Shown: positions 35,769-57,955 of the stretch, piece by piece
How positions within the stretch are numbered: the stretch's first letter is position 1
How the letters are laid out: every line of letters begins with the position of its first letter
Assembly: GCA_046563655.1 (NCBI GenBank)
Contig: JAJCTO010000010.1
Coordinates: 868,001 to 932,000, forward strand
Length of the DNA stretch: 64,000 nt
Reading direction: 5' to 3'
From: Yuukianura sp. NJ FZ-2021
Taxonomy: Eukaryota
Notes under the pieces: generated by a model
The model's database searches: none
What the model saw: only the letters and a program-made list of their open reading frames with translations
Told to the model about the DNA's origin: nothing
Made by a program: the position numbers and the translations under genes

Positions 35769-36195
35769 TGTAACGTCGGATTTTGACTTCTCCCGGAATT
35801 CGTATTTCGGGACAAGTTAAAATCTGAACGAATTTCTAATTAGGAGTAATTAGTGATAAGGGTAAAATGAACGTGTATGCAAATTGATAAAACTCGCTTT
35901 TGCAACAAAGTTGCAAAGAGTTATGATCTTTGATCTGACAGGCCAGAGAAAGCCGACGCGACAATTCTACTTGTTTAACAAGTTTTACACTTGTTTGACA
36001 TGTAAAGTCATGCCATAAGCGAGTGATTTTAATTCAAATTGACGAGATGTCAATTTGCATACACTCGCAACTTTGTCTGATATCGGACATTAATGACTAA
36101 ACAGGATTATAAATCCTGGTCATTAACGTCCGATTGCGGACACAAGTTGCCAAGGGTAATTAGAATTAGAGGACAGAGTAGGTTACTAACTAGGT

Positions 36196-36317
36196 TATAA
36201 ATAGTAGTGAGAACTCTGTTAAAATTAAGTCATTTTCAAATTAGCTTTTCTCCTAAATCTCTCTGGGATCTACTTTCAAAAGGTTAGGTTGCGCTATACT
36301 CTCTTTTGGGAAATAAA
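36196..36317 (+). promoter_or_regulatory. LTR1 TATA box, initiator-like motif and poly(A) signal
   Basis: TATAAATA at 36196, aagtcatt about 30 nt downstream, AATAAA at 36312-36317. All three are conserved in LTR2. Confidence 0.75.
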
Positions 36318-36407
36318 CTCTGAAAAATCCAACTCTCTGCCGTTGTTGCATCTAAACTTCGCTCTTGCTGGAGTCCACTAACTACCGAGAATCCAACTGT
36401 AGCTGAA

Positions 36408-36416
36408 GAGGTAATT
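36408..36416 (+). promoter_or_regulatory. Putative splice donor in LTR1
   Basis: ctgtagctgaagag|gtaatt; LTR2 has ctgtagctgacagag|gtaagg at the homologous position. Confidence 0.6.
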
Positions 36417-36783
36417 GAAAACAATTACTATGTTGTTTAAGAGAGCTAGGTTTGGGCTTATTCTATAGTATCTTAGGCAGTTAGGACTGGCGGTGGGGCT
36501 GGTGGGACCAGGCCCCACCTGGGGTCAATGGCGGGTAATCAGGAGAAACAGGTGGATTAGGTAGGCTAGGCTTCATCCTCTTCTTGATCTCTGGCATTCA
36601 GATTAGTTCCTTAAGGGCCCGGGAGGGTCAAAGGGTTAGGTCACGAGGGGTACGCGGGTGTTAGACCCGCAGAGGACTTGGGGCCTCGGCTATTGGTAGT
36701 TTTCAGAGAACTACCAACAGTTTTCATTAAACAAAGGTACTTTTCCAAGTATTTTAAAGATGCGAAGAATTACCCCGTTTCAA

Positions 36784-36801
36784 TGGAGGTTCTACTGAGA
36801 T
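36784..36801 (+). promoter_or_regulatory. Primer-binding site, tRNA-Gln
   Basis: TGGAGGTTCTACTGAGAT versus the reverse complement of the metazoan tRNA-Gln 3' end (TGGAGGTTCCACCGAGAT); the two differences would be G:U pairs. Identical in element 2. Confidence 0.88.
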
Positions 36802-37556
36802 CCTCTCGTATAGCCCTTAAGGCTTCCAGTTAGGTTAATAGGCAGTTCACAAAGGTCAAAGTAATATATAGAGCTCATAATTATTTGAAAAATCAAAATC
36901 AGAAATGGCGCGAAAATTTGAATTTTTAAAAATCTGAAAAATCAGTAGTAGAAGGTAGGAAGGGACTTTGTCCCCAGCTAATAGTAGAAGGCAAGGGGAG
37001 AACTTAACCCTGGTCTAAATTTTGATCTGAAAAACTTTCCTATTAAAACTATTAAAACTGTTGAGCTATCAGAACCATAACGTTCACTTTTAATCAGTTC
37101 ATAATTCACAAAGTGAACTTTCAAATCCATAACGTTTTACACGAAATGAATTTTCCGAAAAACCAAAATCTTTACCAAAGCATTACAAATATTGTATTTA
37201 AAGTTTTGAACTCTGAAACTCATATTAGAAAAATGAATACTGAGACTACCCTGAGAACTCGATGAGTTTGATCAAATTAACAATAACGCTGTTTCATTTC
37301 CAAAAACATAACGGTTCCTTAACGCTCTCTGTTGACCTATGACATAACGCCCATACGGGATAACCATGGAATGGTGTCCATTAACCTATTGTTCTAAGAC
37401 TTCATGATCTCATTTCTTTTGGAATCCTAAAGACTGAAGAGAGAGAGAATTGTGGGAAAAGATTTCCAACTCGCTTAAAGAAAGTAGAATCTGGACGAGA
37501 GTTCAGTAGCTTAAGAGCATGCCTAAAAGGAAGCTCTTGTAGAAAAATTTCGATTT

Positions 37557-38311
37557 GAAAATGACTTCTTCACAGGGCGGGGTAGACCCTGTGAATAAGA
37601 GTACTGCCCATGGATGACGGCTTGAGGTCCGAGCCCATGTAAGGACTTGATCAATCCCGTCTGAAGGGACAAGTCAGGGTCATGAGGTAGACCCTTAGCA
37701 ACTGGTGTATGCTTTGACCAGGGCTATGGTTTGTGGCGAGAATGCCCCATAGCTGCTCTTATCATTTGGACAATCCGAACACTTGTAGGCGCTGGAGTCG
37801 CGACCAGCAGAAGCTAGTAATTAGGTAGGACAAAGGCCCAAATCCAGACGGCAGGATACCACGGTGAGCTCCGAGGTGGCGAAGGTTCCGCCTGGACCAA
37901 CGAGCTCAGCATAGTTAAGAGAAGGATAAGTCAAGTCTCCGTAGATGTTCCTAAAACGTATACTGGTGCGAAGGGACTAAGGTACCATAGTCCCTCTAGA
38001 AAATGGCTCCACTTTTTGAAAATTTTGCCAAGAATCTCAGTCCATGGAGCACCATGCCCAGACCTAGCCAGTCTGATAGGCAATTTCGTACTGATGACGT
38101 CGAAGGTTTCGACACACACACCCCATGCTCATGGAAGGGAGCATTCTTACCTCTGAGAGTTTGGACTGAGAGGGAACTGAGCCTACTACGAGAGATCTTG
38201 CTAGGGGTGCTAGGAATCTAAAAGCTAAGCAGGTTCCATTTCTTCTTGAATTGAAGAAGGAGTATTAACTCCATACAAACCCTTCCAGGAGAAGGAGATA
38301 GGAGCGACGAC
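37557..38311 (+). other. Large conserved cis-acting RNA structure upstream of the MMP start (candidate IRES and/or packaging signal), element 1
   Basis: Many hairpins with compensatory changes relative to 50148-50920 (listed under findings). Confidence 0.75.
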
Positions 38312-39679
38312 ATGACTCCATACTTTTTATTCTTGACGACGCTGATACTGATGGCCGAAGCATCCGTGCTCACCAGGGAGGAAGACGGTGCCATCCGCTG
38401 CTGGGAAGAGGATCCTGCAGACGTTTCGAGGACTAAGCGTCACGTTTTCAACCCAAGGATGTGGTCAACATTCCAGTTAGGATGGACCCTACAAGACGTA
38501 CCCTTGGAGGTAGACGAATTAAATGCTATGTCTGACGTTAAGTTAGCATTACTTAGATGGAACGAGGTTTCCAATTTCACTTTTGAAAATAAGCCAGGTG
38601 ACTCAACCGCGGAGATTCAAATTAAATTTGCAAAATTTGATCATAACGACTCAAAACCATTTGACGCTGAGGGTGGTATCCTAGGCCATGCATTCTACCC
38701 TAGTGAAGGACTAGGAGGAGATGTGCATCTAGACGCATCTGAAAAATGGGTAACAGGATTTAACACAACTGGAATTAATTTATATACAGTTCTTTTACAT
38801 GAGGTAGGCCATGCCCTTGGTCTTGTCCATACCTCTGAAAACAGTTCAATCATGTACCCTTGGTACAGAGTAAGGGACCCTAACTTAAAACTAAATAATT
38901 CGGACAAACAAGCCCTTGGTAAACTTTACGAACAAGCACATCTTGTGCTCCAAATTGATGAAGAACGAAAAGAAGTCCAAAGTAGACTAAATCGCGCTGT
39001 ATGCAAAGGACGCATTGAACATGCCTTTCGTCTGAATAACGTTTACTTTCTATTCCAAGGGTACGGGCACTTTCAAGTAGAAAAAGGGAAACTTAGTTAC
39101 CCAAGATTTATTATCAACCATCAATATTATCAATACTTTCCAGAAAATACCCAGATCGACCGAATTTTTAAATTCGACGGATTCATTTACATTTTTGCAA
39201 ACACACAATATTGGAAGTACTATACCTCTACCATTTTAGAAAAAGGATATCCCGAAGAGACCAGAAAGTTAGGGATTCTATCTCCAATTACTGGAGTAAT
39301 AACGCAGAGACGTAGCCTTTACCTACAGGTCAATGGTACTTGGCTTGGCTACTACCACTCTCAGGGAAAATTACACCCTCAGGATAAAACACAATTTCCG
39401 CCGCGGTTGAGCGAAGTTCGTACACCGATTATAAGCATTAACGAACATCACCTTGGTCTTTATTCCTTAGAACGAGGTCTTATTATGGAATATGACTGGA
39501 ACTTTCGTTTACACCGATATTACCGATTAGCCAAATTCCTGCAAATCAACTGTGAACCAGAATCCAGTGACTTGACTGCCGGGGCAGATAAGATAGGGTC
39601 ACTTGCATGGGCATTCTTCGGTGTCATAATAATATTCTCACTGATTTCAGTGATTATCATATGGAATTCAATCTATTAA
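38312..39679 (+). CDS. Membrane-anchored matrix metalloproteinase (matrixin/M10A-like), 455 aa
   Basis: Signal peptide; degenerate cysteine switch IRCWEEDP; furin site RTKR; structural-Zn segment DHNDSKPFDAEGGILGHAFYP...GDVHLD; catalytic HEVGHALGLVH; Met-turn SIMYP; hemopexin-like segments (YIFANTQYWKY...GYP); C-terminal hydrophobic anchor; no introns. Confidence 0.95.
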   Translation: MTPYFLFLTTLILMAEASVLTREEDGAIRCWEEDPADVSRTKRHVFNPRMWSTFQLGWTLQDVPLEVDELNAMSDVKLALLRWNEVSNFTFENKPGDSTAEIQIKFAKFDHNDSKPFDAEGGILGHAFYPSEGLGGDVHLDASEKWVTGFNTTGINLYTVLLHEVGHALGLVHTSENSSIMYPWYRVRDPNLKLNNSDKQALGKLYEQAHLVLQIDEERKEVQSRLNRAVCKGRIEHAFRLNNVYFLFQGYGHFQVEKGKLSYPRFIINHQYYQYFPENTQIDRIFKFDGFIYIFANTQYWKYYTSTILEKGYPEETRKLGILSPITGVITQRRSLYLQVNGTWLGYYHSQGKLHPQDKTQFPPRLSEVRTPIISINEHHLGLYSLERGLIMEYDWNFRLHRYYRLAKFLQINCEPESSDLTAGADKIGSLAWAFFGVIIIFSLISVIIIWNSIY

Positions 39680-39790
39680 GATCGAAGAACTAAATAAATC
39701 CACGACTTGGATTTTTGGGATTAACTGTTGACCCACATTTGTAAAGCTATTATATTGTTTCATTAAGGTTACTATTGCCTGGGTTAGGGC

Positions 39791-41309
39791 ATGAGTACTG
39801 GTGAATCCAGTTCGGGGAAAAAGAGAGATCGAGGGACACCAGAATTTTCATTCACTGCATTGGATACGGTGCTGAAAGATAATCGATCTAAGTCAAAGTC
39901 GCCTAAGAACCGAGAAGAGGAAATCGCTTCAGGCACACAAGCAGGGTCAAGTACCACTCCTACAAATCCGGGGATCAGGGCTATTCCAGAAGTAGTGGTT
40001 GAAACAGTCCAACTTCCGTCAAATCCCCCGATCACTGTGAAGGACGAACGTTTAGAAAGGAAAAGCCAACATACCACTAAGGCTACGAAGGCTGACAGGT
40101 CAGATCGTCCTATTTTAATTCCTACTCCTACTCAGGAGAGAGAAAGCTTACGTAGGGACTTGAGTCTTGATTTATCTGGCACTGTCGGAGGAGTTATGGC
40201 TGACCCAAATAATACTGGCGCAGGGGCTCCAGGGGAGTACCCCTGGTCCTGTAGCCTTGGTAGCACCTGGTGGGACAGGGAACGTGTTCGTTTCTGTATG
40301 GACCCCGCCAGGGGACCCTATGTTCGAAGGAAAAAGAGGGACGCATGCTACTAACTTCATGCAAACCTTTAAAGCCGTTGCAGCTACGCAGCATTGGGAC
40401 GACGCTGCGAAAGTCGTCCATTTTCCACTTTATCTAACCAAGTATGCTAAGACTTGGTGGTTAAATTATTGCATGGATTGGAAGAGAGATCCTGCAAATA
40501 TTGACGATGATGGTGAAGTAATACCGTTGTCATGGTCCAAAATTGAGGAAGATTTCAAAATAGCGTTCAAATCCCGTCTTACCGAAGACGCTCTTGAACA
40601 TAAACTTGCTCAAATGCGACGAGGAAAGAATGTTCGCATTGAAGAATACTGTAGTAATATTATGCGACTGTGTGACCAATTGGACAAAAGCCAGGGCACA
40701 GTCATGAAGGATGAAAAGCGCGTAAAGTACCTTTTGAAGGGGTTGAGCCATGACGAAAGTCATGAGGTCTTTCTCAGGCAACCTAAGACCCCGAAGGATG
40801 TTATCGATTTCTTAATTCAGAAAGAGGATTACGATTTCATGATGGATAGGAAGAAAGACCCTTCAGGTCAACGTAGAATGGTCACTAGGTTCAATGCTAT
40901 GACCGTCCAGGATGAGGGTAGAGGTTCAAACTCCGCAACAAACCAACCTCGTCAGCGAGGAGGTTATCGTGGCGGTTGGAAAAACAGTAATCGAGGTTTC
41001 GGAAAGGCCGGACACGGGTACTCTCGAGGTGGAGGTGGACCCAGAGGAGGAAATAATACTAATAATCAGGGGAATTACTCCAGAAATGAGCAAAGCTCAT
41101 ACCGCGGTCGGTGGAACAACCGAGGAAGCCGTGGATCTTGGACACCCCGCAACGCTGGTAGTAAAACCCAGCGTGCAGATGGCACTCCGATAGAATGTTG
41201 GGAATGTGGTGAGAATCATAGAAGGGCAGACTGCCCAAAATTTAAGAAAACGCCATTGGCGATTGAGGCACCGCCTGTTGAGTCGGAAAACTCCCCTGCA
41301 CGTCAGTAG
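39791..41309 (+). CDS. gag: Gag of element 1, interrupted by an apparent 2-nt deletion near 40232-40235
   Basis: ORFs 39791-40354 and 40167-41309 together align to the single 52392-53894 Gag. Capsid-like region, RGG-rich tract, zinc knuckle CWECGENHRRADC. Confidence 0.9.
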
Positions 41310-41341
41310 GGGGAGCTGACGTCGACGTTACATGTCCCCCT
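41285..41341 (+). promoter_or_regulatory. Gag-pol -1 ribosomal frameshift element (G_GAA_AAC plus H-type pseudoknot)
   Basis: pol is in the -1 frame and open from this heptamer. Stem 1 acgtcag/ctgacgt; loop aggggga pairs with tccccct. Confidence 0.8.
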
Positions 41342-41374
41342 ACTGTCATTCCAATCGAGCCAATTTTTAATTCA

Positions 41375-44300
41375 ATGCAACTTGACGTTTCGGACCCGAA
41401 ATTAAGAGGAAATTTTATCACTCCCATTTTCATTAACGAATCAGGAACCCTAAATCGCAAATCTTGCTTAATCGATAACGGAGCATCAGTCAGTATCGTT
41501 ACTTTAAATAACGTAACCACTTTTGAAAAACTTAAACAACCATTTAAAATTAAATTGGCTAACGACAATCAAGTGGAGATTATGGGCACGTGCCAACTTC
41601 GAGTTCATTTTACACGAGCCGAAGACGAATTTTTCGATTGGGATTTCTTTGTTATTAACAAAAGTTTTGTAGACTTTGTCATTGGACTCGATTTCCAAGC
41701 AGCCAATTTGATGCACTATCGTTTATTAAATCCCAATGGGTTAGCGGAATTCCAATTCCAGGGTATGCGTACCCCGAAACGACTTAACATTTTTCCCAAA
41801 ACAGGAACAGAAACAATTCTTAACTCCATACGCGTAGAAGAAGCTAACTTATGTAAGAAAAATCATCCATCCACACCCAAGGTTTTGACAATGGAAGAGG
41901 TGGTACTCCCACCATTTGCTACTACTCATGTAAAGGTATCACCGGTTCACACGATTTCAGGCACCCTAGCCTTCGAACCTAACTCCACCGGGTTAGACAA
42001 GCTAGGCATTTGCATTCCTCACCTAGCTCACATTCCTGAAGGAGAATTTACTTTACCGGTGGATAACCCCAGACCAATTCCGGTCACTCTTTATAGAGGC
42101 GTTAACGTTGGATGGATCAGTCGAGTTATCGTCAGAGACTCACAACCAGAGGAAGTCATACGAGCGGCTCGATTTAAATCCACTCGAGAAAATATAGATC
42201 AGATCGACATCAATCCCGAATTAGATCCAGAACAGAGACAACAATTGAGGGAACTCATTCTAGAATACGGTGATGTTTTTGCTTTCGATTTAACTCAATT
42301 AGGGAAAGCAAAGGATGTTAGTTTTCGCATCGATACAGGAGACGCCCTTCCAGTTAGTTGTCCTCCTTACAAAAAGTCTCCCATCGAAAAGAAAATCATA
42401 GAGAAGGAAGTTGAGACACTTTTGAATGCAGGCATTATTCGGGAAAGTCAGTCCCCTTGGTCGGCTGGAGTTTCTTTAGTACGAAAACAGAATAGTGACA
42501 AATTTCGGATGTGTGTAGATTGGAGACGTCTTAATTTTGTAACAAAAACTGTCGTCTGGCCCATGGCAATTATTAGCGAACTACTTGCATCTTTTAATGG
42601 TGCCAAGTATTTCAGCGTGATGGATTTAATGTCAGGTTATTTTCAGCTGCCTATCCATCCAGACGATGCTGAGAAGACCAGTTTTGTGACTCATACTGGG
42701 GCCTATGAATACTTATTTGTTGGTTTCGGTCTAACTAACGCCCCAGCAGCATTCTCTGCATTTTTAAAGACAGTGTTAGGCAATATGCTTCATTCCATTG
42801 CCACTGCGTATTTAGATGACGTCTGCTGCTATAGTAAGGACTTTCCAAGCCACTTGGTCAACCTGCGAAAGGTTTTTGAACAATTCCGTACTTACAATTT
42901 AACGTTACAGCCGCCAAAATGCCACTTTGGCCAAACTAAAATCGAACTGCTAGGTCATATTATTTCTGGTGATGGAGTGTCAGTTAATCCAAATAAGGTC
43001 AGTGCCATCTCGAAAATGCCTATTCCTACGAACATCGGAGAAGTACGAACTTTCCTAGGTATGGCTGGATATTACAGGCGATTCATTTCAAACTACAGCC
43101 TTATCGCTGCCCCATTAACTTCACTGACAAAGAAAAACGCTGCTTTTGTCTGGGGCCATGATCAACAGCAAGCTTTCGATACATTAAGGGAAAAGCTGAT
43201 GTCAGCACCTATTCTCACATTTTTCAATGAGAACGCAGACTTGGAACTTCACACCGATGCGTCCAATAAAGGTATTGGCGCAATCCTAAATCAAAGAGAC
43301 TCCGACGGAGTATTGCGCGTTGTCGCATACGCTAGTCGAACCTACCGTGGTGCGGAAGAAAGGTATAACACTAGCGAGCAAGAAGCGTTAGCGGTCGTTT
43401 GGGGATTGGAAAAATTTAGAGAATTTATTGGTTTTAAGGGAATTACCATCGTCGTAGATCATCATGCTCTATGCTATCTGAAAACATGTAAGAATTTAAG
43501 AAATAGTCGTCTCGCCCGTTGGGCTTCACGGCTTCAGGATGTTGTGTACGAAATCAAGCACGTAAACGGAAAAAGCCACGTCCAGGCTGACTGCCTTAGT
43601 CGTTTTCCTGTCCAGGAAACCGAGGACACAAAGACTTTCACCGACGAATTTCCAACAACATGGTATAGCATGCGGTTAGTGACACCGGTAGACTATACTG
43701 AGGACCTCGCAAATGAACAATTAAAGGATAAAAAGCTTGAACTCATCATAAACTCCCTTAAGGCAGGCAAACCAAAATATCAATCCAGTTTCGATTACTC
43801 GGATGATCTTTTAAAAATCCTATGTAAACAAACCAAGCATTACCTTCCCGTAATCCCAGCACACCTTGTCGAGTTTGCCATTCCTAGATTTCACGATGAT
43901 ACCTTGATGGGTCACTTAGGCATCGCCAGAACAATGGCAAGAATCCGCCAGAGTATTCTCTTTTTCAAAATGGAGAAACGAGTAACACAATACATTAAAC
44001 AATGTAAAACATGTCAATTACGGAAATCGAAAAACGTAAAGCCATACGGGCTGCTTTCATCCATTGACGTAAGCTCACTAGCTCTTTTTGACAAATGTAG
44101 CATCGATGTAATTGGTCCCCTAAATACCACAAAACGGGGTAATCGATATATTGTAGTCCTTGTCGAATTTGTGTCAAGATACATATTTGCCAAAGCTATT
44201 CCTGATAACAATACCAAAGAAATGATCGCATTTTTAATGGAAATTATACAAACCCATGGGGTTTTTAAGACTTTGCTGTCAGATAACGCGAGTACTTTTC

Positions 44301-45241
44301 AATCTTCTTTCTTTAAACAATTTAATAAGATGATTGGTATCACAAATTTATATTCTACTCCGTACCACAGCAGGACCAACGGTTTAGTCGAGCGGACTAA
44401 CCGAAGCCTCGAAGAGGTACTTACTAATTATGTCTCCAGCACTCAGCGTGATTGGGACAAATACCTAGGATCAGCCGTATACAGTCTAAACACCGCTGTC
44501 CACAAGGACAGCTCGGGTTTCAGCAGTTACTACATTTTGCATGGTCGAAACCCACAACATCCGTTAGACGTCGCCTTAGATACGACAAAAGATGTCGTGG
44601 ACGTTCCGTCACGAGTACGACGCATGGAGGATGCGCGTAACGCTGCCCGTGCAGGCCTCAAGAAAGCCCAGGCACATCAGGCCAAGCTGTTCGACCCGGG
44701 ACGTCAGCCGTTCGAATTCAACGTTGGCGATTTGGTACTCCTGAAAGTACATAAGCCGAAACCTGGTACAAGCCGTAAGCTTGCTATGCGTTATAAGGGT
44801 CCTTATGTTATAATCGGAAAGAAGTCGACCCTCACTTACTACTGTCGTCTTCGGGACGGGGATCCCGAGGCTACACCCACAAGGGTGCACATAGAGAACA
44901 TCAAATTGTTTCATGAGGCAGATATCTCATTTAAAGTTCCTGCCGAAGCTGCTCCAGGAGTAGCAGCAGAACAAGTTGGGGAAGGGCCGCTATTTGAGCA
45001 GCCTATACCCGAAATTTTTGAATTCCCGGTTGCAGAGTCTGATAGGAACCTAGACCCAACCGAGGACGATGATGAAACCGACGAGATAGGAGAAGACAAT
45101 CACATATCAACAGACGAGGATAACTCATCAGAGGAGGAGGAGATTAGGCTAGCACAGGAAATCAATGAGCAGGCGCAGGAACCCGTAGTGGTAACCCGCT
45201 CAGGAAGGGTCGTTAGAAAACCCGTTAGATTTCTGTCTTAA
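41375..45241 (+). CDS. pol: Pol polyprotein (PR, RT, RNase H, integrase); real entry probably by frameshift near 41285
   Basis: LIDNGAS protease; YLDD RT; HTDAS...EQEALA...DHHAL RNase H; HHCC and D,D35E integrase (IDVIGP, SDNAS, NGLVER); GPY motif; acidic tail ending TRSGRVVRKPVRFLS. Confidence 0.98.
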   Translation: MQLDVSDPKLRGNFITPIFINESGTLNRKSCLIDNGASVSIVTLNNVTTFEKLKQPFKIKLANDNQVEIMGTCQLRVHFTRAEDEFFDWDFFVINKSFVDFVIGLDFQAANLMHYRLLNPNGLAEFQFQGMRTPKRLNIFPKTGTETILNSIRVEEANLCKKNHPSTPKVLTMEEVVLPPFATTHVKVSPVHTISGTLAFEPNSTGLDKLGICIPHLAHIPEGEFTLPVDNPRPIPVTLYRGVNVGWISRVIVRDSQPEEVIRAARFKSTRENIDQIDINPELDPEQRQQLRELILEYGDVFAFDLTQLGKAKDVSFRIDTGDALPVSCPPYKKSPIEKKIIEKEVETLLNAGIIRESQSPWSAGVSLVRKQNSDKFRMCVDWRRLNFVTKTVVWPMAIISELLASFNGAKYFSVMDLMSGYFQLPIHPDDAEKTSFVTHTGAYEYLFVGFGLTNAPAAFSAFLKTVLGNMLHSIATAYLDDVCCYSKDFPSHLVNLRKVFEQFRTYNLTLQPPKCHFGQTKIELLGHIISGDGVSVNPNKVSAISKMPIPTNIGEVRTFLGMAGYYRRFISNYSLIAAPLTSLTKKNAAFVWGHDQQQAFDTLREKLMSAPILTFFNENADLELHTDASNKGIGAILNQRDSDGVLRVVAYASRTYRGAEERYNTSEQEALAVVWGLEKFREFIGFKGITIVVDHHALCYLKTCKNLRNSRLARWASRLQDVVYEIKHVNGKSHVQADCLSRFPVQETEDTKTFTDEFPTTWYSMRLVTPVDYTEDLANEQLKDKKLELIINSLKAGKPKYQSSFDYSDDLLKILCKQTKHYLPVIPAHLVEFAIPRFHDDTLMGHLGIARTMARIRQSILFFKMEKRVTQYIKQCKTCQLRKSKNVKPYGLLSSIDVSSLALFDKCSIDVIGPLNTTKRGNRYIVVLVEFVSRYIFAKAIPDNNTKEMIAFLMEIIQTHGVFKTLLSDNASTFQSSFFKQFNKMIGITNLYSTPYHSRTNGLVERTNRSLEEVLTNYVSSTQRDWDKYLGSAVYSLNTAVHKDSSGFSSYYILHGRNPQHPLDVALDTTKDVVDVPSRVRRMEDARNAARAGLKKAQAHQAKLFDPGRQPFEFNVGDLVLLKVHKPKPGTSRKLAMRYKGPYVIIGKKSTLTYYCRLRDGDPEATPTRVHIENIKLFHEADISFKVPAEAAPGVAAEQVGEGPLFEQPIPEIFEFPVAESDRNLDPTEDDDETDEIGEDNHISTDEDNSSEEEEIRLAQEINEQAQEPVVVTRSGRVVRKPVRFLS

Positions 45242-45298
45242 GAAGCCTCCTAATTAGCTTAGAATTTCGGTAAAGGGGTAGTTAGGGTAATTTAATAC

Positions 45299-45322
45299 TT
45301 AGGAACTTTTAATCCCTTCTAG
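45299..45322 (+). promoter_or_regulatory. Putative env splice acceptor, element 1
   Basis: ttaggaacttttaatcccttctag| lies 7 nt before the env ATG; conserved in element 2 amid otherwise diverged spacer. Confidence 0.65.
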
Positions 45323-45329
45323 AACAATA

Positions 45330-47479
45330 ATGGCAGCCATCCACGCAATTATCGCCTTCCTTCTACTCCCCACTATCAGCTCGTACGAAATCATACCCAA
45401 ACAAGTTCGAGTAACCACCGGAGCCTTAATCCGAGAAGTCAAGAACGTTGAATTGTATTCATCCAGCGTTCCCTTAATCTACGATGTCAACGCAACCTTC
45501 TCCGGATTACCTAAGGGAATTTTAACTCCCAAACGTTGTCAGACTGGGAGCAGCTGTGAATTCCCAATTACAATGCGTCCCTATGTGGAACATATCACGG
45601 ACGTCATGCAGAAAATCATCGATGACCTTTTAATGAGCTCTCCCAGGAACACAAGACAGAAGCGTTTTAGTCTAGATGACTATAACCCTCTTACATGGAT
45701 CGGTGACCTCTACTCCGCTTGTTGTGGAGTAGCATCGAAAAGAGATTTGAAAGAATACCAAGTTGATTCCCAGAAAGTACAGCAGTTTATGGAATCAATA
45801 AAGAAAGCCGTTGTAACATCCGATCAAAACGTAATTACTGTAAAAGACAGTTTCGAAATGTTCCGAAGCAACGTCTCGAGTATTGTTTCGAGAATCCATG
45901 ACACTATACACACCCTTTACGCTGAGCGAATCAACGCCTCAATTATTGAAACGCAGTTAGAACAACGCGTAACAGAAGCATTCGAAGAATTAGATTTCCA
46001 TAGAAGAGGATTTGTGCAGATCTACAATCACATCAACTCCCTCACAGAGATTATTCGATTTAAAGATCTTCAAGATCACTGCAGATCACAGACGATCCCA
46101 CTGTTAGCAATCCAACCGAAGAAGCTACAACGAGATTTGAGGGCCATCCGAAGACTTATCAACAAGGATGGATACGATCTTGTGATATCAGAAAACGAAA
46201 TTTCCAAATACTACAAACTCAAGATCACAGATTGTGTAACTACGGCCGAAGGGAGAATCGTCTTCAAACTCCGCATCCCAATAAAGAAAACCGAAGACGA
46301 TTGGCAGCTTCACGAGCTGGTCAACATTCCATTTGGTTACCGGGGTAGTACATGTATCATTCAACACGCTCCGACATACTTAGCTACAAGCAAAGGCAAC
46401 CTAGTAACTATTCAAGGTACTCAACTCCATCAATGTCAACCAGACACCGGACTTTGCAAAATTCCAAACTTCAACTCCGATCCTTTGTCTGGATATCTAT
46501 GTGCCCAAAGATTACTTCGCGGAGCCAGCGTTCGAGAACTGAACCAAGTCTGCCTATTTGAATGCCTCTCAGACCAAAATGAGTTTGCAATCACACAACT
46601 CGATTACCATACCTTCATCCTAACCGGAGCCCCGGAAGGAATGGCCGTACATTGTGGGACAGAAGACGCGGATAGGATCTATCCCTTGAGGACACCTGCC
46701 GATGGCATTGGTAGTATCGAAGTACAGCTACCTTGTGACTGTCAATTGATTATACCCGGAAGAATGCCGGTCAGACCACCTTATCCTTGTCCAACAGGAC
46801 CCATAATATATCCCAAGGTTAACATTGTCATTCCGGCAATGATGTCCAAAGTAGATTTGTTACTGAAAGCAACAGACTCTCGAGAAAACAAGGAAGCCAC
46901 TGTATTTCCCAGCATTGAAACAGTGTTCAATGAGACTTGGGAATTAGACTCACCTAAGTTAAATCTCACAGAGGTAACACAGCTGAAAACTTTGATTGTT
47001 CCTCAGTTGGTAGCCAAGATGGCACCATCCAGTAATACTGCTCTGATAATATGGAACATTTTAATAAGCTTAGTGTTAGCTTTTCTTTTCTACCGCGAAA
47101 TGAGCCGACATGGTGGTTACCTTCTTGGTCTCCCCATGTTAGGAGGACAACTCGGACATGCCCAAGCATCCGCCGAGATTCACGAACACCACACATGGAA
47201 TTTAGGAGTAACTTTACTCCTAATTATAGCATTCATCGCATTCTTTATGTTTGGCTATGCATACTCATATTACAGACGCCGCAAGAGCGGTAAGAATTGG
47301 CCCAGTGGCGAGATCAGGGCAGACGGTACCGATTTGAATAAGTTTGAGAAAGGGGTCGAACACCGTTTCACCCGCCTCTTGTAACTCAAGCTGTCCAGGT
47401 GATGGACACGATAATTGAAGAGAATGAGAGTATCACTTCTGAAAGTGATCATGTTGAGGAAGAGGTAGAAGAATTATGA
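45330..47479 (+). CDS. env: Env-like fusion glycoprotein; as written stops at 47384 because of an apparent 1-nt deletion in a G run (47352-47355)
   Basis: Signal peptide; furin site RQKR followed by fusion-peptide-like FSLDDYNPLTWIGDLYSACCGVA; heptad-like region; Cys-rich ectodomain; hydrophobic C-terminal segments. Adding one G restores an acidic tail (...EEEVEEL, TGA 47477-47479) homologous to element 2. Confidence 0.88.
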
Positions 47480-48131: not shown

Positions 48132-49134
48132 TGTAACGCCGGATTTCGAGCCACCCGGAGACTTTGAGATCTCCCGGTGGGCCGAAACCGGACGATTGTA
48201 AAATAAACATTAGTTTTAATAGAACAAGTAGGAAAGCAAAGACTCAGCTTCTTTTCCTCTTTCTTAAGAGGATCAAGTGTCAAAGATTTATGACAATTGA
48301 TCTTTGACATGACGGATCAGTGGGAGGGCAAGCAACAAAGTTGCTTGTTTAACAAGTTTTTCACTTGTTAGACATGTGAATGTCAACTCATCAAAAGTTG
48401 ACATTCATACAAAGTGCCCAGATAATCAACTTGCATAGTCCCACAACTTAGTTCAATCTTGGACTTTAATGACAGAACAGGATCATAGATCCTGGTCATT
48501 AACGTCCAACTATGAACTCAGGTCGCTAAGCGTCCCTCGGTTGAAGGACAAGCTGGGTCAAGAGTAAGGTTATAAATATAAGTAACAACTTGTTAGCGTT
48601 AAGTCATTTCTAGATTAGCTTCTGGCCAAGTACTCTCTCTCTCCAACTTAAGGTCTAAGGTCGAAACACTAAGTCTTTTGCAAATAAACACTGTTCTTGG
48701 GAAGATCTTTCGTCATTCTTCAACTCCACGTCTCACAGCTAAACGCATCTCCACGGCTTCATCTCCACAGCTCACGCATCTGCCACTGCCGCTTTCACCG
48801 ATCCGACTGTAGCTGACAGAGGTAAGGGAATCTTCCCTTCTTATATAGGTTCGAGAGTTAGTTAGACATCCACTTTTCAAGCGTCATTTAAGGTGGGTCC
48901 GGTGGGACCGGCCCCACCTAGATAGAAGGCAAGGTAGAGAATGAGACTGCGGCGTGGTTCACTTTGAGGTCATACATCCAAATGAGTCCCAGGGGACCCA
49001 GAAGGGTCAAGTTTCAGGTCAGGAGGGGTGGGGCGGGTGTTAGACCCGCCATTTTGATTGTTTTCAGAGAACAATCAAAGAGAATCATTATGATAAGTTA
49101 GCAAATCATCAAGCATCATTTTCACCCTGTTTCA
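48132..49134 (+). repeat. 5' LTR of element 2 (1003 bp)
   Basis: TGTAACG...TGTTTCA; TATAAATA 48571; AATAAA 48683; donor at 48822; followed by PBS. Clearly homologous to, but much diverged from, LTR1. Confidence 0.9.
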
Positions 49135-49153: not shown

Positions 49154-50147
49154 CCTTCTGTATAGTCCCTAGATTCATTTAAGGTCAAGCGAGGTCAACT
49201 AGAATAACAGTTAACATAACGTCTGGAGAAAGCAGCTCTTAGAATTAGAAACTCGTTTTGGCGGGAAAATTCGAATTTGAAAATTTTTTTTTACTATATA
49301 CAAGGGTAGGCCTATAGCCCACAGCCTAAATGGCAAGTCCTCTTTCACATTTCTGAAGAACTTTTGAAGAATTACTTTTGGCGCGAAAATTTAAATTTTG
49401 AAAATTTAAAGTATGATGTATGGAAGAACATCAAGTCCTATCGTCTTGCAGTTTAGTAGTCAGTGTGAATCAAAATTTTTAAAGTTTCATGTGTTACATC
49501 TAATATTGTTCTCATTTCATAATTCTGTTTTTGCAAAAACGCCAAGAAGAGTACAAAATTTATCAGACTCATCTTTCATAAATTTATCAGCTGATTTGAA
49601 TTCATCTCAATAAAGTACAATTGCATAACGACATTTTAATACGTTAATTAACTACTATACAAATTTCATTGCATAAAGTTTTGAACTGAATTTCGGCGCG
49701 AACACTCAAAATTCAAACTAGTAGAATTCTTGCATGAACTTACATTTCAATTTTCTTCAAATGACAAATTCTTGAATTTCGAATTAAGTTTCAGTTGAAA
49801 ATTAAAATTTATCTTTTCGTTTAGTGTCTTTTCAAACATAGACAGGATTAACGTAAATTCGCATTCAGAAAAAGGCTTTTTGACGTTATGACCTCTCTTG
49901 ACCTCAACAGCTTTTGGTATAGGAGTAACTATACCCCTACAATGTAATCATCCACTGATCTCATACAAGTTTTTAAGGCTGAAATCGAAATAATGACGGA
50001 AACCTGTTTAGCTTTCTTCTGTTTCTTTTCTTCTCAAAGCTTTCACTTCATAATTAAAGAGTAGAGTGGAAGGGGGGAACCCTTCCCACAGTTAGTCGAC
50101 ACTAAGTAGAGTGAAGGGAAGAGCCTTCGCTCGAATTGCAGAAATTT

Positions 50148-50920
50148 AGAAATGACTTCGTCACGAGGGAGGATAGACCTCGTGACTATGTAGTACTGTT
50201 TAAGGACAATAGCTTTAGGTCTGAGTCCTCGTAAGGACTTGATGCTTCCCGCCTTTAGGGACAAGTCGGGGTCAAGAGGTAGACCCTTAGCAACTGGTGT
50301 ATGTTTGACCGGGGTCATGGTATTTGGCGAGAATGCCCCATGACTGCTCTTAGTCGAAGGATAATCCGAACACTTGCGGACGCTGGAGTCGCGACCAGCA
50401 GAAACTTGTTATTAGGTAGGACATAAGCTAGAATCTAGACAACAGGATACCGCGCTAGGTCCGGAGGTGGCGAAGGTTCCGCCTGAGACCGATGGGCTTA
50501 GCATAGTTAAAATCAGGGAAAAGGTCAAGTCTCTGCAGCTGTTCCTTAGAGCACTAGTGATGCGAAGGGGCGGGGTACCACAGCCCCTCTGAAGAATGGC
50601 TTTAGAATTTTTATAGAGTTGTCATTAACTCAAGGTTAGATCCCAGTCCATGGAGCATCATGCCCGGACCTAGCCAGTCCGATAGGCCATCTATCACACT
50701 GATGACGTCACATAAGTTGACAAATACACCCCATGCTCAAGGAAGGGAGCATTATTGGAAGTACCTCTGATAATTTGGACTGGGAGGGGACTGAACCTAC
50801 TGCAGGAGATCTTGCCAGGGTGTTAGGATCTAGCATTGAGTAGACCCTACCTTCATGAAATGAAGGAGGAGTATTAACTCCATACGCAACCTTCCAGGAA
50901 GAGGAAAACAGCAGAGAAGG
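50148..50920 (+). other. Conserved structured RNA upstream of MMP, element 2
   Basis: Homolog of 37557-38311 with compensatory base changes. Confidence 0.75.
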
Positions 50921-52300
50921 ATGTCTCTCTACGTTTTGCTGTTAATTACATTGACGCTGATGGCTGAAGGATCCGTGCTCACGAGAGAGGAGGATGGAGC
51001 CATCCGATGCTGGGAGGAAGACCCACTGGATAGTCTTAGGACAAAGCGTCATGTGTTCAATCCGAGGATGTGGAAAACGTTCCAACTAGGATGGACTTTA
51101 GAGGACGTACCCTCAGAGATCCGAAAAGCCGACGCCCTTACTGATATTAAGCTAGCGTTCCAGAGATGGAATGAGATTTCAAATTTCACATTTATGAATA
51201 AGCCAGGTGACTCAACTGCAGAGATCCAAATTAAGTTCGCCAAGTTTGATCATAACGATTCAAAACCATTTGACGCTGAGGGTGGTATCCTAGGCCATGC
51301 CTTCTATCCCAGTGAGGGGATAGGAGGAGATGTGCATTTAGACGCATCTGAAAAATGGGTTACAGGTCACAATGCCTCTGGCATTAACTTGTATACCGTA
51401 ATGTTACACGAAGTAGGTCATGCCCTGGGGCTTGTCCACACTTCGGTGAATAGTTCGATCATGTTCCCATGGTACAAGATGAGGGACCCCCAACTAAACT
51501 TGAGCATAGTGGACAAACAAGCTCTTGAGCGACTCTATGAGCAGGCTCACTTGATCCTGCAAATCGATGCTGAAAAGAAGGAAGTCCAACAGCAGCTGTA
51601 CCGAGCCGTGTGTTCAAAACTCATAGAGCACGTCTATCATCTAAACAGCGTTTACTTCTTGTTCCAAGGGTTTGGACACTACCAAGTAGAAAGAACTGGG
51701 AAACTTAGTTATCCTAGATTTGTGATCAATCATCAATATTTTCAATATTTTCCTGAAAATATACGAATCGAGAGGATCTTCCCATTCGATGGACATCTCT
51801 ACATTTTCGCCAACGGAAAGTACTGGAAATACTTTACCAACACCATCTTAGACAAAGGGTACCCAGCTGACACAAGGGAACTAGGAATTTCCACTCCAAT
51901 TACTGGAGTCATAACGCAGAGACGTACGTTGTACTTACAAGTAAATGGCACATGGCTAGGTTACTACCACTCTCAGGGGAAACTGTTTCCTCAAGATAAA
52001 GTTCATATCCCTGTACAGTTGAGTGAGGTGCATGCACCTGTTGTAAGCATAAATGAGCATCACCTGGGCTTTTATTCTTTAGAACACAGCCTTATCATGG
52101 AGTACGATTGGAATTTCCGACTCCACAGATACTATAAGCTAGCTAAGTTTCTCGGAATTGACTGTGAACCTAGTACAGGCGATCTGACTGCTGAGGTAGC
52201 AGAGATCGGAGCACTCACATGGGCATTTTTCGGTGTCATGATAATTTTCTCACTGATTGCAGTGACAATTATCTTTAATTCTATCCATTGTGATGAATAA
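50921..52300 (+). CDS. Membrane-anchored matrix metalloproteinase, 459 aa
   Basis: Same motifs as the 38312 ORF: IRCWEEDP, RTKR, HEVGHALGLVH, SIMFP, hemopexin-like region, C-terminal hydrophobic segment; frame intact. Confidence 0.95.
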   Translation: MSLYVLLLITLTLMAEGSVLTREEDGAIRCWEEDPLDSLRTKRHVFNPRMWKTFQLGWTLEDVPSEIRKADALTDIKLAFQRWNEISNFTFMNKPGDSTAEIQIKFAKFDHNDSKPFDAEGGILGHAFYPSEGIGGDVHLDASEKWVTGHNASGINLYTVMLHEVGHALGLVHTSVNSSIMFPWYKMRDPQLNLSIVDKQALERLYEQAHLILQIDAEKKEVQQQLYRAVCSKLIEHVYHLNSVYFLFQGFGHYQVERTGKLSYPRFVINHQYFQYFPENIRIERIFPFDGHLYIFANGKYWKYFTNTILDKGYPADTRELGISTPITGVITQRRTLYLQVNGTWLGYYHSQGKLFPQDKVHIPVQLSEVHAPVVSINEHHLGFYSLEHSLIMEYDWNFRLHRYYKLAKFLGIDCEPSTGDLTAEVAEIGALTWAFFGVMIIFSLIAVTIIFNSIHCDE

Positions 52301-52391
52301 AATCAAAGGTTTTATTTTCTGGGTTTGGATCTATGTTTAAAGTTGTATGTGTATGATTTGCTTAAGGTATTTCGCCCGTTTCAAAAAGGGC

Positions 52392-53894: not shown

Positions 53895-53926
53895 GGGGAG
53901 CTGGCGTCATTCATTCGTGTCCCCCT
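53870..53926 (+). promoter_or_regulatory. Gag-pol -1 frameshift element, element 2
   Basis: G_GAA_AAC; stem acgtcag/ctggcgt (G:U-tolerant change); aggggga/tccccct; pol in the -1 frame and open from the heptamer. Confidence 0.8.
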
Positions 53927-53971
53927 TCATCTCTCCACAACGAAACGTTAAATGAACCAATTTTAAATTCC

Positions 53972-57832: not shown

Positions 57833-57923
57833 AACGCACCACTAATCAACTACTCATATAGAATTATGGAGGCGGGAAATTAGGTAGTTAAGGTAGTTAA
57901 GTGGTAGGACAGCTTCAGAATAT

Positions 57924-57946
57924 TTAGGAACTTTTCATTCCCCTAG
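57924..57946 (+). promoter_or_regulatory. Putative env splice acceptor, element 2
   Basis: ttaggaacttttcattcccctag| lies 9 nt before the env ATG. Confidence 0.65.
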
Positions 57947-57955
57947 AAAAGAAAA

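What the first reader, a model, noticed from the sequence alone, without database searches (positions are those of the whole stretch)
37557..38311. About 750-nt covarying RNA structure ending just before the MMP start codon (candidate IRES)
Seen, element 1 versus element 2: ttcacaggg/ccctgtgaa vs gtcacgagg/cctcgtgac; gctatgg/ccatagc vs gtcatgg/ccatgac; tgagctc/gagctca vs ctaggtcc/gggcttag; ctcagtcca/tggactgag vs tcccagtcca/tggactggga; cagac/gtctg vs cggac/gtccg with a possible ccta/tagg pseudoknot; ttcttc/gaagaa vs ccttca/tgaagg; invariant ggagt-atta-actcc. A loop ggaagg could pair with ccttcc about 25-30 nt before the ATG. The AT-rich leader upstream is poorly conserved and contains many AUGs. 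Inference: a selected multi-domain RNA, plausibly an IRES driving the MMP, or a packaging domain.
Basis: partly seen in the sequence, partly recalled or inferred. Interest (0 to 1): 0.8.

Follow-up and report, generated by a model that had tools for sequence, protein, structure and literature searches.

The report
Structured leader RNA of a retroelement
The roughly 750 bases before the metalloproteinase gene of two diverged retrovirus-like elements fold into one shared, strongly selected multi-domain RNA, a real cis-acting leader domain whose exact job (packaging, translation or splicing control) still needs an experiment.

Summary
The window holds two Ty3/gypsy-like, env-carrying retroelements. 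Each has a matrixin (MMP) ORF before gag. Their synonymous sites are saturated (pS 0.73-0.79), yet the non-coding 37553-38311 is 578 of 755 aligned bases identical to 50144-50920.

One fold fits both copies: 185 pairs, 23 with changes on both sides. The consensus energy is -215 kcal/mol against -122.5 +/- 7.2 for 100 column shuffles. Twelve coding control windows give -79 to -165. A fold of element 1 alone keeps 19 of 20 doubly changed pairs in element 2, against 70 of 162 in controls. The + strand fits better than the - strand. There is no ORF and no Rfam match.

Function is inferred only. Conserved splice-donor-like (U5) and acceptor-like (23 nt before the MMP ATG) signals would place the domain in an intron of subgenomic mRNAs. 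That would leave it on genomic RNA only. Two hairpins carry invariant palindromic apical loops.

I favour a packaging/dimerisation domain (0.45) over an IRES (0.30). No further copies or RNA data could be obtained.

The parts
37553..38288 (+). Structured leader domain of element 1 (the finding). It has 34 helices, grouped as: hairpin 37569-37595; domain I 37604-37854; hairpin 37863-37910; domain III 37929-38202; 3' hairpins 38205-38237, 38241-38257 and 38259-38272.
   Evidence: RNAalifold and helix table; controls; no ORF.
50144..50897 (+). Homologous structured leader domain of element 2.
   Evidence: Alignments A1 and A2; 578 of 755 aligned bases identical.
37791..37808 (+). Invariant hairpin GCUGG/CCAGC. 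Its 8-nt apical loop holds the palindrome UCGCGA (37798-37803). Candidate kissing loop.
   Evidence: sequence read. Function is inferred.
37972..37995 (+). Hairpin with two doubly compensated pairs. Its apical loop holds the invariant palindrome GGUACC (37981-37986). Candidate kissing loop.
   Evidence: Function is inferred.
38259..38288 (+). Invariant hairpin GGAGU-AUUA-ACUCC containing a branch-point-like UAUUAAC (38263-38269), then the pyrimidine tract CCCUUCC and CAG|G (AG at 38287-38288). This is either an acceptor-like 3' splice signal or a Yn tract.
   Evidence: Read; conserved in element 2 (AG at 50896-50897). The splice-signal consensus is recalled, not tested.
38289..38311 (+). 23-nt purine-rich, ATG-free spacer before the MMP ATG (19 of 23 purines; 21 of 23 in element 2). 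The sequence is not conserved, but the composition is.
   Evidence: purines counted by hand.
38312..39679 (+). MMP ORF of 455 aa: signal peptide, RTKR, HEVGHALGLVH, C-terminal membrane anchor.
   Evidence: Pfam Peptidase_M10, E 4.6e-43; translation; dN/dS about 0.05.
36784..37552 (+). Primer-binding site (36784-36801, inside a 27-nt block identical in both elements), followed by the AT-rich, non-conserved leader.
36400..36418 (+). Conserved splice-donor-like site in U5. The cut would lie between 36410 and 36411 (48821|48822 in element 2).
   Evidence: Alignment A5; no ATG between the presumed start site (about 36231) and this site in either element. Inferred; no RNA data.
35769..36782 (+). 5' LTR of element 1 (TG...CA). 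TATA at 36196-36203, Inr-like TCATTT at 36230-36235, AATAAA at 36312-36317.
   Evidence: Loose ends at 48132 for the element 2 LTR start.

Best explanation
The domain is a cis-acting, multi-domain structured part of the 5' leader of the full-length (genomic) + strand RNA of an env-carrying Ty3/gypsy-like retroelement.

MOST LIKELY ROLE. It marks and organises the unspliced genomic RNA, as a packaging/dimerisation (Psi/DIS-like) domain.

HOW IT WOULD WORK.
1. Transcription starts in the 5' LTR.
2. Subgenomic mRNAs for the MMP and the env-like protein are made by splicing from a donor in U5 (36410|36411). The acceptors lie 23 nt before the MMP ATG and 7 nt before the env ATG.
3. The whole 740-nt domain is therefore intronic and is found only on unspliced RNA.
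4. Two apical loops with 6-nt palindromes could start RNA-RNA kissing.
5. The 3' end of the domain pairs over, or encloses, the branch-like site and the pyrimidine tract. This could also hold down use of the MMP acceptor.

SHOWN: the conserved, covarying + strand structure; its non-coding nature; strong purifying selection.
INFERRED: the start site, the splice sites, the intronic position, dimerisation and packaging.
For: STRUCTURE IS REAL AND SELECTED..
- Synonymous sites between the elements are saturated (pS 0.73-0.79, pN 0.09-0.14), while the leader differs at only 177 of 755 aligned sites.
- + strand: RNAalifold gives -214.9 against -186.8 for the - strand. The blind test keeps 19 of 20 doubly changed pairs on + against 10 of 15 on -. 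In the consensus, 17 pairs change between G-U and a Watson-Crick pair.
- Non-coding: 8-25 stops in every frame, and substitutions by codon phase are 60/60/57.

GENOMIC-RNA-ONLY PLACEMENT (inferred).
- A donor-like ...AG|GUAA sits within a 16-nt conserved block of an otherwise diverged U5.
- There are 0 ATGs in the 181- and 217-nt stretches from the presumed start site to the donor. Only 307 and 362 of 5000 shuffles give 0. The donor-to-acceptor interval holds 28 and 30 ATGs.
- Branch-like, pyrimidine and CAG|G signals are conserved 23 nt before the MMP ATG. A similar pyrimidine-TAG lies just before the env-like ATG.

PALINDROMIC LOOPS. UCGCGA and GGUACC are invariant in apical loops, and the GGUACC stem covaries.

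BY ELIMINATION. This is the only long conserved non-coding block between PBS and first ORF. It does not extend into the MMP ORF: third-base identity there is 0.41-0.44, which is background.

KNOWN PRECEDENT. Leaders of retroviruses and Ty1 carry packaging, dimerisation and translation signals together (PMC5454406 and PMC6844567; I saw only the starts of their abstracts in the listing).
Against: - There are only two sequences and no RNA, splice or packaging data.
- The domain is separated from the PBS by 770-1009 nt of unconserved sequence, whereas it abuts the MMP ATG. Known Psi regions usually follow the PBS closely and often run into gag.
- 740 nt is large for a packaging signal.
- Palindromic hexamers in apical loops are only suggestive. 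About 0.8 are expected by chance in the 53 loop windows (hand estimate). Three are seen in element 1, and two of them are conserved.
- If gag-pol is translated from the unspliced RNA, some internal initiation is still needed. That would favour an IRES somewhere in the element.
Confidence: 0.45

Rival explanations
1. IRES. The domain recruits ribosomes internally on the unspliced genomic RNA, or on an mRNA that keeps the leader, and places them on the MMP AUG. This bypasses a leader of about 2 kb holding 25-27 upstream AUGs.
For: - The domain ends at a fixed distance from the AUG in both elements. Its last conserved block is a pyrimidine tract followed by a 23-nt unstructured purine-rich spacer and the AUG. 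This resembles the Yn-Xm-AUG border of picornavirus IRESs (recalled).
- 15/16 AUGs inside the domain and 10/11 upstream make scanning implausible on unspliced RNA.
- A multi-domain architecture with long-range closing helices is IRES-like.
- The MMP ORF is under strong purifying selection (dN/dS about 0.05), so it must be expressed.
- IRES activity has been reported for retroviral leaders. For HIV-1 I saw the abstract start of PMC3319624 in the listing. For gypsy and Idefix I rely on recall.
Against: - Complete acceptor-like signals lie at exactly this border, and there is a conserved donor with an ATG-free first exon. These offer an ordinary cap-dependent route.
- No Rfam IRES model matches. 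The best is IRES_APC at 14.9 bits against a gathering score of 50, E 8.2.
- No apical 4-nt GNRA loop appears in the consensus fold.
- Conservation does not extend into the ORF.
Confidence: 0.3
2. Splicing or nuclear-export control element. The fold masks or exposes the MMP 3' splice site, or it binds an export factor (CTE/RRE-like). Either way, enough unspliced RNA would leave the nucleus.
For: - The branch-like A (38268) lies in the stem of the invariant hairpin.
- The pyrimidine tract and AG pair with the GGAAGG loop region in the minimum-energy fold of element 1. That helix has 11 pairs; 8 are invariant and 3 are unpaired in element 2 (helix 31).
- Retroelements with spliced mRNAs need a way to export intron-containing RNA (Cer1: abstract start of PMC10309623 in the listing).
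Against: - About 700 nt of conserved multi-domain structure is far more than is needed to mask one splice site.
- The masking helix has no covariation.
- No candidate adaptor protein was identified.
- Known CTEs are short and lie near the 3' end (recalled).
Confidence: 0.15
3. No RNA function. The apparent structure would be a by-product of DNA-level conservation (enhancer or insulator), or of chance in a two-sequence comparison.
For: - Only two sequences are available.
- RNAalifold always finds some compensated pairs (6-18 in coding controls).
- 5' UTRs of insect gypsy-like elements hold DNA regulatory sites (recalled).
Against: - z = -12.9 against column shuffles.
- 19 of 20 doubly changed pairs are kept in a fold blind to element 2, against 70 of 162 in controls. 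By hand binomial this is about 1e-6.
- Compensated helices join segments about 250 nt apart.
- G-U pairs favour the + strand.
Confidence: 0.03

Closest known systems
Retroviral 5' leader packaging/dimerisation domains (HIV-1 leader with DIS, MLV Psi, MMTV leader; recalled, plus PMC8096270 abstract start in the listing)
   Same: - A structured, multi-hairpin, cis-acting RNA of the genomic + strand.
- It lies downstream of the putative major splice donor and upstream of the first acceptor.
- It has apical loops with 6-nt palindromes.
   Different: - About 740 nt, against roughly 100-350 nt.
- It is separated from the PBS by 770-1009 nt of unconserved AT-rich sequence.
- It precedes an accessory MMP ORF rather than gag, and does not extend into the ORF.
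- There is no sequence or Rfam relationship.
Ty1 TIPIRT domain and Ty1/Ty3 encapsidation determinants (PMC5454406, PMC6844567, PMC4974528; abstract starts in the listing)
   Same: An LTR-retrotransposon 5' RNA region that combines translation, packaging and reverse-transcription signals. Dimerisation starts from palindromic kissing loops.
   Different: - The Ty1 domain overlaps the GAG coding sequence and the PBS, whereas this one is wholly non-coding and far from the PBS.
- The element family is different (Ty1/copia against Ty3/gypsy-like with env).
Picornavirus type I/II IRES, and IRESs reported in retroviral or gypsy/Idefix leaders (recalled; HIV-1: PMC3319624 in the listing)
   Same: A large multi-domain fold ending in a pyrimidine tract, a spacer of about 20 nt and the AUG. 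The leader is long and AUG-rich, which should block scanning.
   Different: - No match to any Rfam IRES model.
- Longer than the usual 450 nt.
- The same 3' border also reads as a full 3' splice site.
- No activity data exist.
HIV-1 RRE / MPMV CTE (export elements of unspliced retroviral RNA; recalled)
   Same: A structured element present only in intron-containing viral RNA.
   Different: - The position differs: 5' leader here, against env or the 3' end.
- No Rev-like ORF is recognised.
- No sequence relationship.

Membership tests
Any Rfam 15 family (including IRES, packaging-signal, CTE/RRE, ribozyme and ncRNA models) | Covariance-model score at or above the family's gathering score | tested here: not met
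   - (35500-64000, E up to 1): only mir-5615, 26.5 bits against 82, outside the region.
- (region alone, E up to 10): best scores 12-17 bits against gathering scores of 35-96. The hits differ between the two elements.
Retroviral/LTR-retroelement packaging-dimerisation (Psi/DIS) domain | Conserved + strand RNA structure in the 5' leader of the genomic RNA | tested here: met
   LTR, PBS and ORF order.
Retroviral/LTR-retroelement packaging-dimerisation (Psi/DIS) domain | Lies between the major splice donor and the first acceptor, so it is absent from spliced RNAs | tested here: inconclusive
   Donor-like and acceptor-like motifs are conserved at 36410|36411 and 38287-38288, and the first exon is ATG-free. 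No RNA data are available.
Retroviral/LTR-retroelement packaging-dimerisation (Psi/DIS) domain | Self-complementary apical loop able to form a kissing dimer | tested here: met
   The UCGCGA and GGUACC loops are invariant in both elements. This is weak as statistics: about 0.8 are expected by chance (hand estimate).
Retroviral/LTR-retroelement packaging-dimerisation (Psi/DIS) domain | Selective binding by Gag/NC and enrichment in particles | not testable with these tools
   Needs biochemistry.
Picornavirus-like (type I/II) IRES | Pyrimidine tract, spacer and AUG at the 3' border | tested here: met
   CCCUUCC, then 25 nt to the AUG in both elements. The motif definition is recalled.
Picornavirus-like (type I/II) IRES | Homology to known IRES domains, or a GNRA apical tetraloop in the central domain | tested here: not met
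   No Rfam IRES hit. The only 4-nt apical loop in the consensus is AUUA.
Picornavirus-like (type I/II) IRES | Cap-independent internal initiation | not testable with these tools
   Needs reporter or in vitro translation assays.
Ty3/gypsy (Metaviridae-like) LTR retroelement (the carrier) | Gag, then RT-RNase H-integrase in that order; an LTR beginning TG and ending CA; a PBS beginning TGG; a polypurine tract | tested here: met
   - Pfam: Retrotrans_gag/Ty3_capsid, RVT_1, RT_RNaseH, Integrase_H2C2, rve.
- LTRs at 35769-36782 and 48132-49134; PBS; a purine run before 48132.
- Not met: neither element has its own matching 3' LTR in the window.

The most novel reading that the evidence does not exclude
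The domain is a very large (about 740 nt) IRES of a new structural class. It would let the unspliced genomic RNA of an env-carrying gypsy-like retroelement translate a captured membrane-type matrix metalloproteinase. In that case one RNA fold would serve both translation of a host-derived accessory gene and genome packaging.
Probability: 0.25. Interest if true: 0.7.

Novelty: new member of a known kind. Interest (0 to 1): 0.45.

Why it matters
Structured 5' leaders are the control centres of retroviral RNA. They govern primer binding, dimerisation, packaging, splicing balance and translation. Outside vertebrate retroviruses and yeast Ty elements, almost none has a structure model.

Here two copies have diverged so far that synonymous sites are random, and they still share a 34-helix fold. 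That gives an unusually clean comparative model for an invertebrate-type gypsy-like element.

The element also carries an MMP gene under purifying selection. How an accessory ORF placed ahead of gag is expressed (splicing or internal initiation) is a concrete question, and RNA-seq could answer it. The reads show that the family has hundreds of copies in its host. A proper covariation test is therefore within reach once an assembly is available.

Tried and rejected
- WHOLE GENOME: none is held.
- EARLIER SCAN NOTES: nothing by place, by sequence or by words.
- MORE COPIES BY DNA MOTIF. Four window motifs were scanned.
  - An 18-mer gave 2 loci in viral contigs and 6 loci in metagenome contigs.
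  - Two other 18-mers gave 1 and 6 loci in viral contigs.
  - A 20-mer gave 0 loci in genome contigs.
  - All 15 loci match only the 18-23 nt seed by blastn, so they are chance hits.
- MORE COPIES BY PROTEIN: MMP in viral contigs and Pol in genome contigs and viral contigs found no relative.
- PROTEIN DATABASE: the best MMP relatives are 27-35% identical over their main alignments. The best Pol relatives are at most 43% identical. No close family member is on record.
- SEQUENCING RUNS: 4 DNA runs from 2 studies; no RNA holder is listed.
- LAID CONTIGS: many related copies exist (777, 229, 582 and 134 contigs laid), but their sequences cannot be retrieved. No variant rows were shown for 37553-38311. 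None of the 15 joints shown has GT..AG ends; 62 more joints were not shown.
- CODING READING: rejected.
- MINUS-STRAND RNA: rejected, although the - strand single-sequence z-score is lower (-6.24, against -2.65 and -3.66 for the + strand; 20 shuffles each).
- U5-TO-DOMAIN DUPLEX SEARCH: the best duplexes join GC-rich hairpins at homologous places in both elements. All partners are invariant, so this is no evidence.
- RAISED SYNONYMOUS CONSERVATION AT THE MMP START: not found.
- LITERATURE: no paper on an MMP or matrixin gene inside an LTR retroelement. In PMC13524379, a term search for metalloprote, splice, leader, packaging and IRES gave 0 hits.
- PBS IDENTITY: ARAGORN finds no tRNA gene in the window. 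The resemblance of the PBS to the 3' end of a tRNA-Gln is recall only.

Full report
LAYOUT OF THE WINDOW

Bases 1 to about 35768 are a tandem satellite with a 705-bp period. Two retroelements follow on the + strand. They align over 37553-47412 against 50144-60042 at 75.1% identity (blastn, 9990 columns).

Each element encodes the following, in order:
- a matrixin: Pfam Peptidase_M10, E 4.6e-43 and 3.4e-44, at 38312-39679 and 50921-52300;
- gag (Retrotrans_gag/Ty3_capsid);
- pol, in the order RT, RNase H, integrase;
- an env-like ORF with a signal peptide, an RQKR site and C-terminal membrane segments.

In element 1, gag stands as two ORFs. In element 2, the env-like ORF stands as two ORFs.

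LTRs begin with TGTAACG at 35769 and 48132. Several contigs break at 48132. The LTRs end in ...TTTCA at 36782 and 49134. One base later comes a PBS-like TGGAGGTTCTACTGAGAT, inside a 27-nt block that is identical in both elements. Neither element has its own matching 3' LTR in the window. The LTR at 48132 sits directly behind element 1.

THE OBSERVATION

Between the PBS and the MMP ATG lie two parts.
- An AT-rich part of 770 nt (element 1) or 1009 nt (element 2). It has GC 0.35/0.34, holds 10/11 ATGs, and has no detectable homology.
- A block of 759/777 nt that aligns from 37553/50144 to the ATG. It has GC 0.49 and 15/16 ATGs.

The block is non-coding. There are 8-25 stops in each of the six frames. 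Substitutions fall 60/60/57 by codon phase.

IS IT SELECTED?

Synonymous sites between the two elements are saturated (pS 0.73-0.79), while pN is 0.09-0.14. Third-base identity among identical residues is mostly 0.3-0.6. Against that background the leader block is identical at 578 of 755 aligned sites. For non-coding sequence, this level of identity points to strong purifying selection. The neighbouring AT-rich leader, which has drifted beyond recognition, serves as the internal contrast.

IS IT STRUCTURE?

RNAalifold on the pair gives 185 pairs in 34 helices. Of these, 23 pairs changed on both sides, 17 changed on one side and stayed paired, and none is broken. The energy is -214.95 kcal/mol. 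RNAalifold is built to find such pairs, so I ran three controls.

(a) Column shuffles. 100 shuffles of the alignment give -122.5 +/- 7.2 kcal/mol (z = -12.9). They give 10.7 +/- 2.8 compensated pairs, with a maximum of 18.

(b) Coding windows. Twelve 760-nt homologous coding windows of the same two elements give -79 to -165 kcal/mol and 6-18 compensated pairs.

(c) A blind test. I folded element 1 alone and asked what element 2 does to those 217 pairs.
- 133 are unchanged.
- 24 changed on one side and stayed paired.
- 35 changed on one side and broke.
- 19 changed on both sides and stayed paired.
- 1 changed on both sides and broke.
- 5 fall on gaps.
The same test in the twelve controls keeps 70 and breaks 92 doubly changed pairs. 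By hand binomial, 19 of 20 has a probability of about 1e-6. Sliding the 3' partners by 1-3 columns leaves 0-2 doubly changed pairs, and 0 of 500 shuffles reach 19.

Results less favourable to my reading:
- The reverse test (fold of element 2 alone) keeps 17 and breaks 7 doubly changed pairs.
- Many one-sided changes break pairs of the single-sequence folds. Parts of those folds are therefore wrong.
- Single-sequence z-scores are modest on the + strand: -2.65 and -3.66, from 20 shuffles each.

WHICH STRAND?

The - strand has a lower single-sequence z-score (-6.24). It does worse in comparison: RNAalifold gives -186.8, and the blind test gives 10 kept against 5 broken. The consensus also holds many G-U pairs and G-U to G-C or A-U switches, which would be A-C mismatches on the other strand. 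The folded molecule is therefore the sense RNA.

ARCHITECTURE
- A 5' hairpin at 37569-37595, with 3 compensated pairs.
- Domain I at 37604-37854. It is closed by CUGCC/GGCAG, which reads CUGUU/AACAG in element 2. Compensated inner helices lie at 37633-37643/37782-37790 and 37722-37729/37747-37754.
- A hairpin at 37863-37910.
- A purine-rich linker.
- Domain III at 37929-38202. It is closed by a 15-pair helix with 3 compensated pairs and holds the 10-pair helix 38035-38044/38162-38171.
- Three 3' hairpins.

Two apical loops carry invariant 6-nt palindromes: UCGCGA at 37798-37803, and GGUACC at 37981-37986 on a stem with two compensated pairs.

The GGAAGG loop can pair with CCUUCC at 38281-38286. 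In the minimum-energy fold of element 1 this is an 11-pair helix that also covers the AG. Eight pairs are invariant and three are unpaired in element 2 (helix 31). It has no covariation, so it remains unproven.

WHAT IS KNOWN THAT LOOKS LIKE IT?

No Rfam family matches, either in the broad search or in the two permissive searches of the region alone. No further copy could be found in the viral, metagenome or prokaryote-genome collections. All 15 motif hits are 18-23 nt chance matches. Protein-seeded scans found nothing.

The nearest proteins on record are distant. MMP relatives are about 27-35% identical, with animal MMPs on top. Pol relatives are at most 43% identical, with arthropod entries on top.

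Four DNA runs hold the sequence. When laid, they show that the family is highly repeated at all identity bands: 777, 229, 582 and 134 contigs.

HOW IT PROBABLY WORKS

This section is inference from sequence motifs whose consensus forms I recall. No tool tested them. The LTR has, in order:
- a conserved TATA (36196-36203);
- an Inr-like TCATTT (36230-36235);
- AATAAA (36312-36317);
- a conserved 16-nt block ending in AG|GUAAKKG (cut at 36410|36411 and 48821|48822), set in an otherwise diverged U5.

From the presumed start site to this donor-like site there is no ATG in either element (181 and 217 nt). Only 307 and 362 of 5000 shuffles give none. The next 1876/2074 nt hold 28/30 ATGs.

At the 3' border of the structured domain, both elements keep UAUUAAC (inside the invariant hairpin), then CCUUCC, then CAG|G. 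A 23-nt purine-rich, ATG-free spacer follows, and then the MMP ATG. A similar pyrimidine run plus UAG| lies 7 nt before the env-like ATG.

The economical reading is that the MMP and env mRNAs are spliced from the U5 donor. The structured domain would then be intronic and would remain only on full-length RNA. That is the position of retroviral packaging/dimerisation signals, and the two palindromic loops fit a kissing-loop start. I therefore favour a Psi/DIS-like genomic-RNA domain (0.45). Its 3' end may also damp use of the MMP acceptor.

THE RIVALS

IRES (0.30). The same 3' border reads as a Yn-Xm-AUG motif. The domain abuts the AUG and not the PBS, and it is large and multi-domain. It is also unclear how gag, which lies behind the MMP ORF, is translated from unspliced RNA.

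Splicing or export control element (0.15).

No RNA function (0.03). I regard this as excluded by the controls.

These roles are not mutually exclusive. Leaders of Ty1 and of retroviruses combine them (PMC5454406 and PMC6844567; abstract starts seen in the listing).

NOVELTY

A structured retroelement leader is a known kind of thing. This one has no database relative and is unusually long. It is detached from the PBS and sits before a captured MMP gene. I found no paper describing an MMP in an LTR retroelement. I rate it a new member of a known kind, of moderate interest. It would rank higher if the IRES reading were shown.

LIMITS

There are only two sequences and no RNA evidence. The start site, donor, acceptors and PBS assignment all rest on motif recognition. 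The host is unknown.

Noticed in passing
38312-39679 and 50921-52300: A matrix-metalloproteinase gene sits inside a gypsy-like retroelement, ahead of gag. It has a signal peptide, an RTKR furin-like site, the zinc motif HEVGHALGLVH and a C-terminal membrane anchor, so it resembles a membrane-type MMP. The two copies are 77% identical in protein with dN/dS about 0.05, so the gene is maintained. The nearest database proteins are only about 27-35% identical. No paper on such a capture was found.
   Followed up: partly
36905-36918; 49258-49271, 49378-49391, 49693-49706: A motif TTGGCGSGAAMAYT recurs only in the AT-rich leaders. There are 4 matches with at most 1 mismatch, against 0.23 expected; 0 of 100 shuffles reach 4. 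It resembles an E2F-type site (recalled). It may be a DNA-level regulatory repeat, like the factor-binding repeats in insect gypsy 5' UTRs.
   Followed up: partly
36490-36720 and 48893-49080: The U5 region downstream of the donor-like site holds conserved hairpins. Examples are GGUGGGNC...GGCCCCACC, GCGGGUGUUAGACCCGC, and a hairpin around an invariant UUUUCAGAGAAC loop whose stem shows two compensatory changes between the elements. These may also belong to the leader's cis-acting set.
   Followed up: no
38769 -> 40751: Contigs in two runs of one sample join 38769 to 40751 (skipping 1981 nt, ends TG..CA). This is a deletion derivative lacking the MMP C-terminal part and the gag N-terminal part while keeping the leader. 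By my hand count the junction keeps the MMP frame in phase with the downstream gag ORF of element 1.
   Followed up: no
35769-36782, 48132-49134, 60100-61300: The two elements lie head to tail with a single LTR between them. The two LTRs are only about 71-88% alike, and only in patches. No third LTR follows element 2; homology ends near 60042. This suggests recombination or truncation.
   Followed up: partly
39791-41309; 57956-60112: In element 1, gag stands as two overlapping ORFs in different frames. In element 2, the env-like ORF stands as two ORFs. Neither copy looks fully intact.
   Followed up: no
1-35768: About 36 kb of tandem satellite with a 705-bp period. Copies are 99-100% identical in the stretch examined. 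Element 1 is inserted at, or abuts, its end.
   Followed up: no
61292-62338 and 62597-63826, minus strand: Two ORFs of 348 and 409 aa have no Pfam match even at E up to 1. They may belong to another mobile element that cuts off element 2.
   Followed up: no
38552-38790, 39791-39910, 44315-44494: There are local peaks of third-codon-position identity (about 0.7, against a background of 0.3-0.6) between the two elements. The start of gag is also the most similar DNA stretch of all (87% over 217 nt). Further RNA elements may overlap coding sequence there.
   Followed up: no
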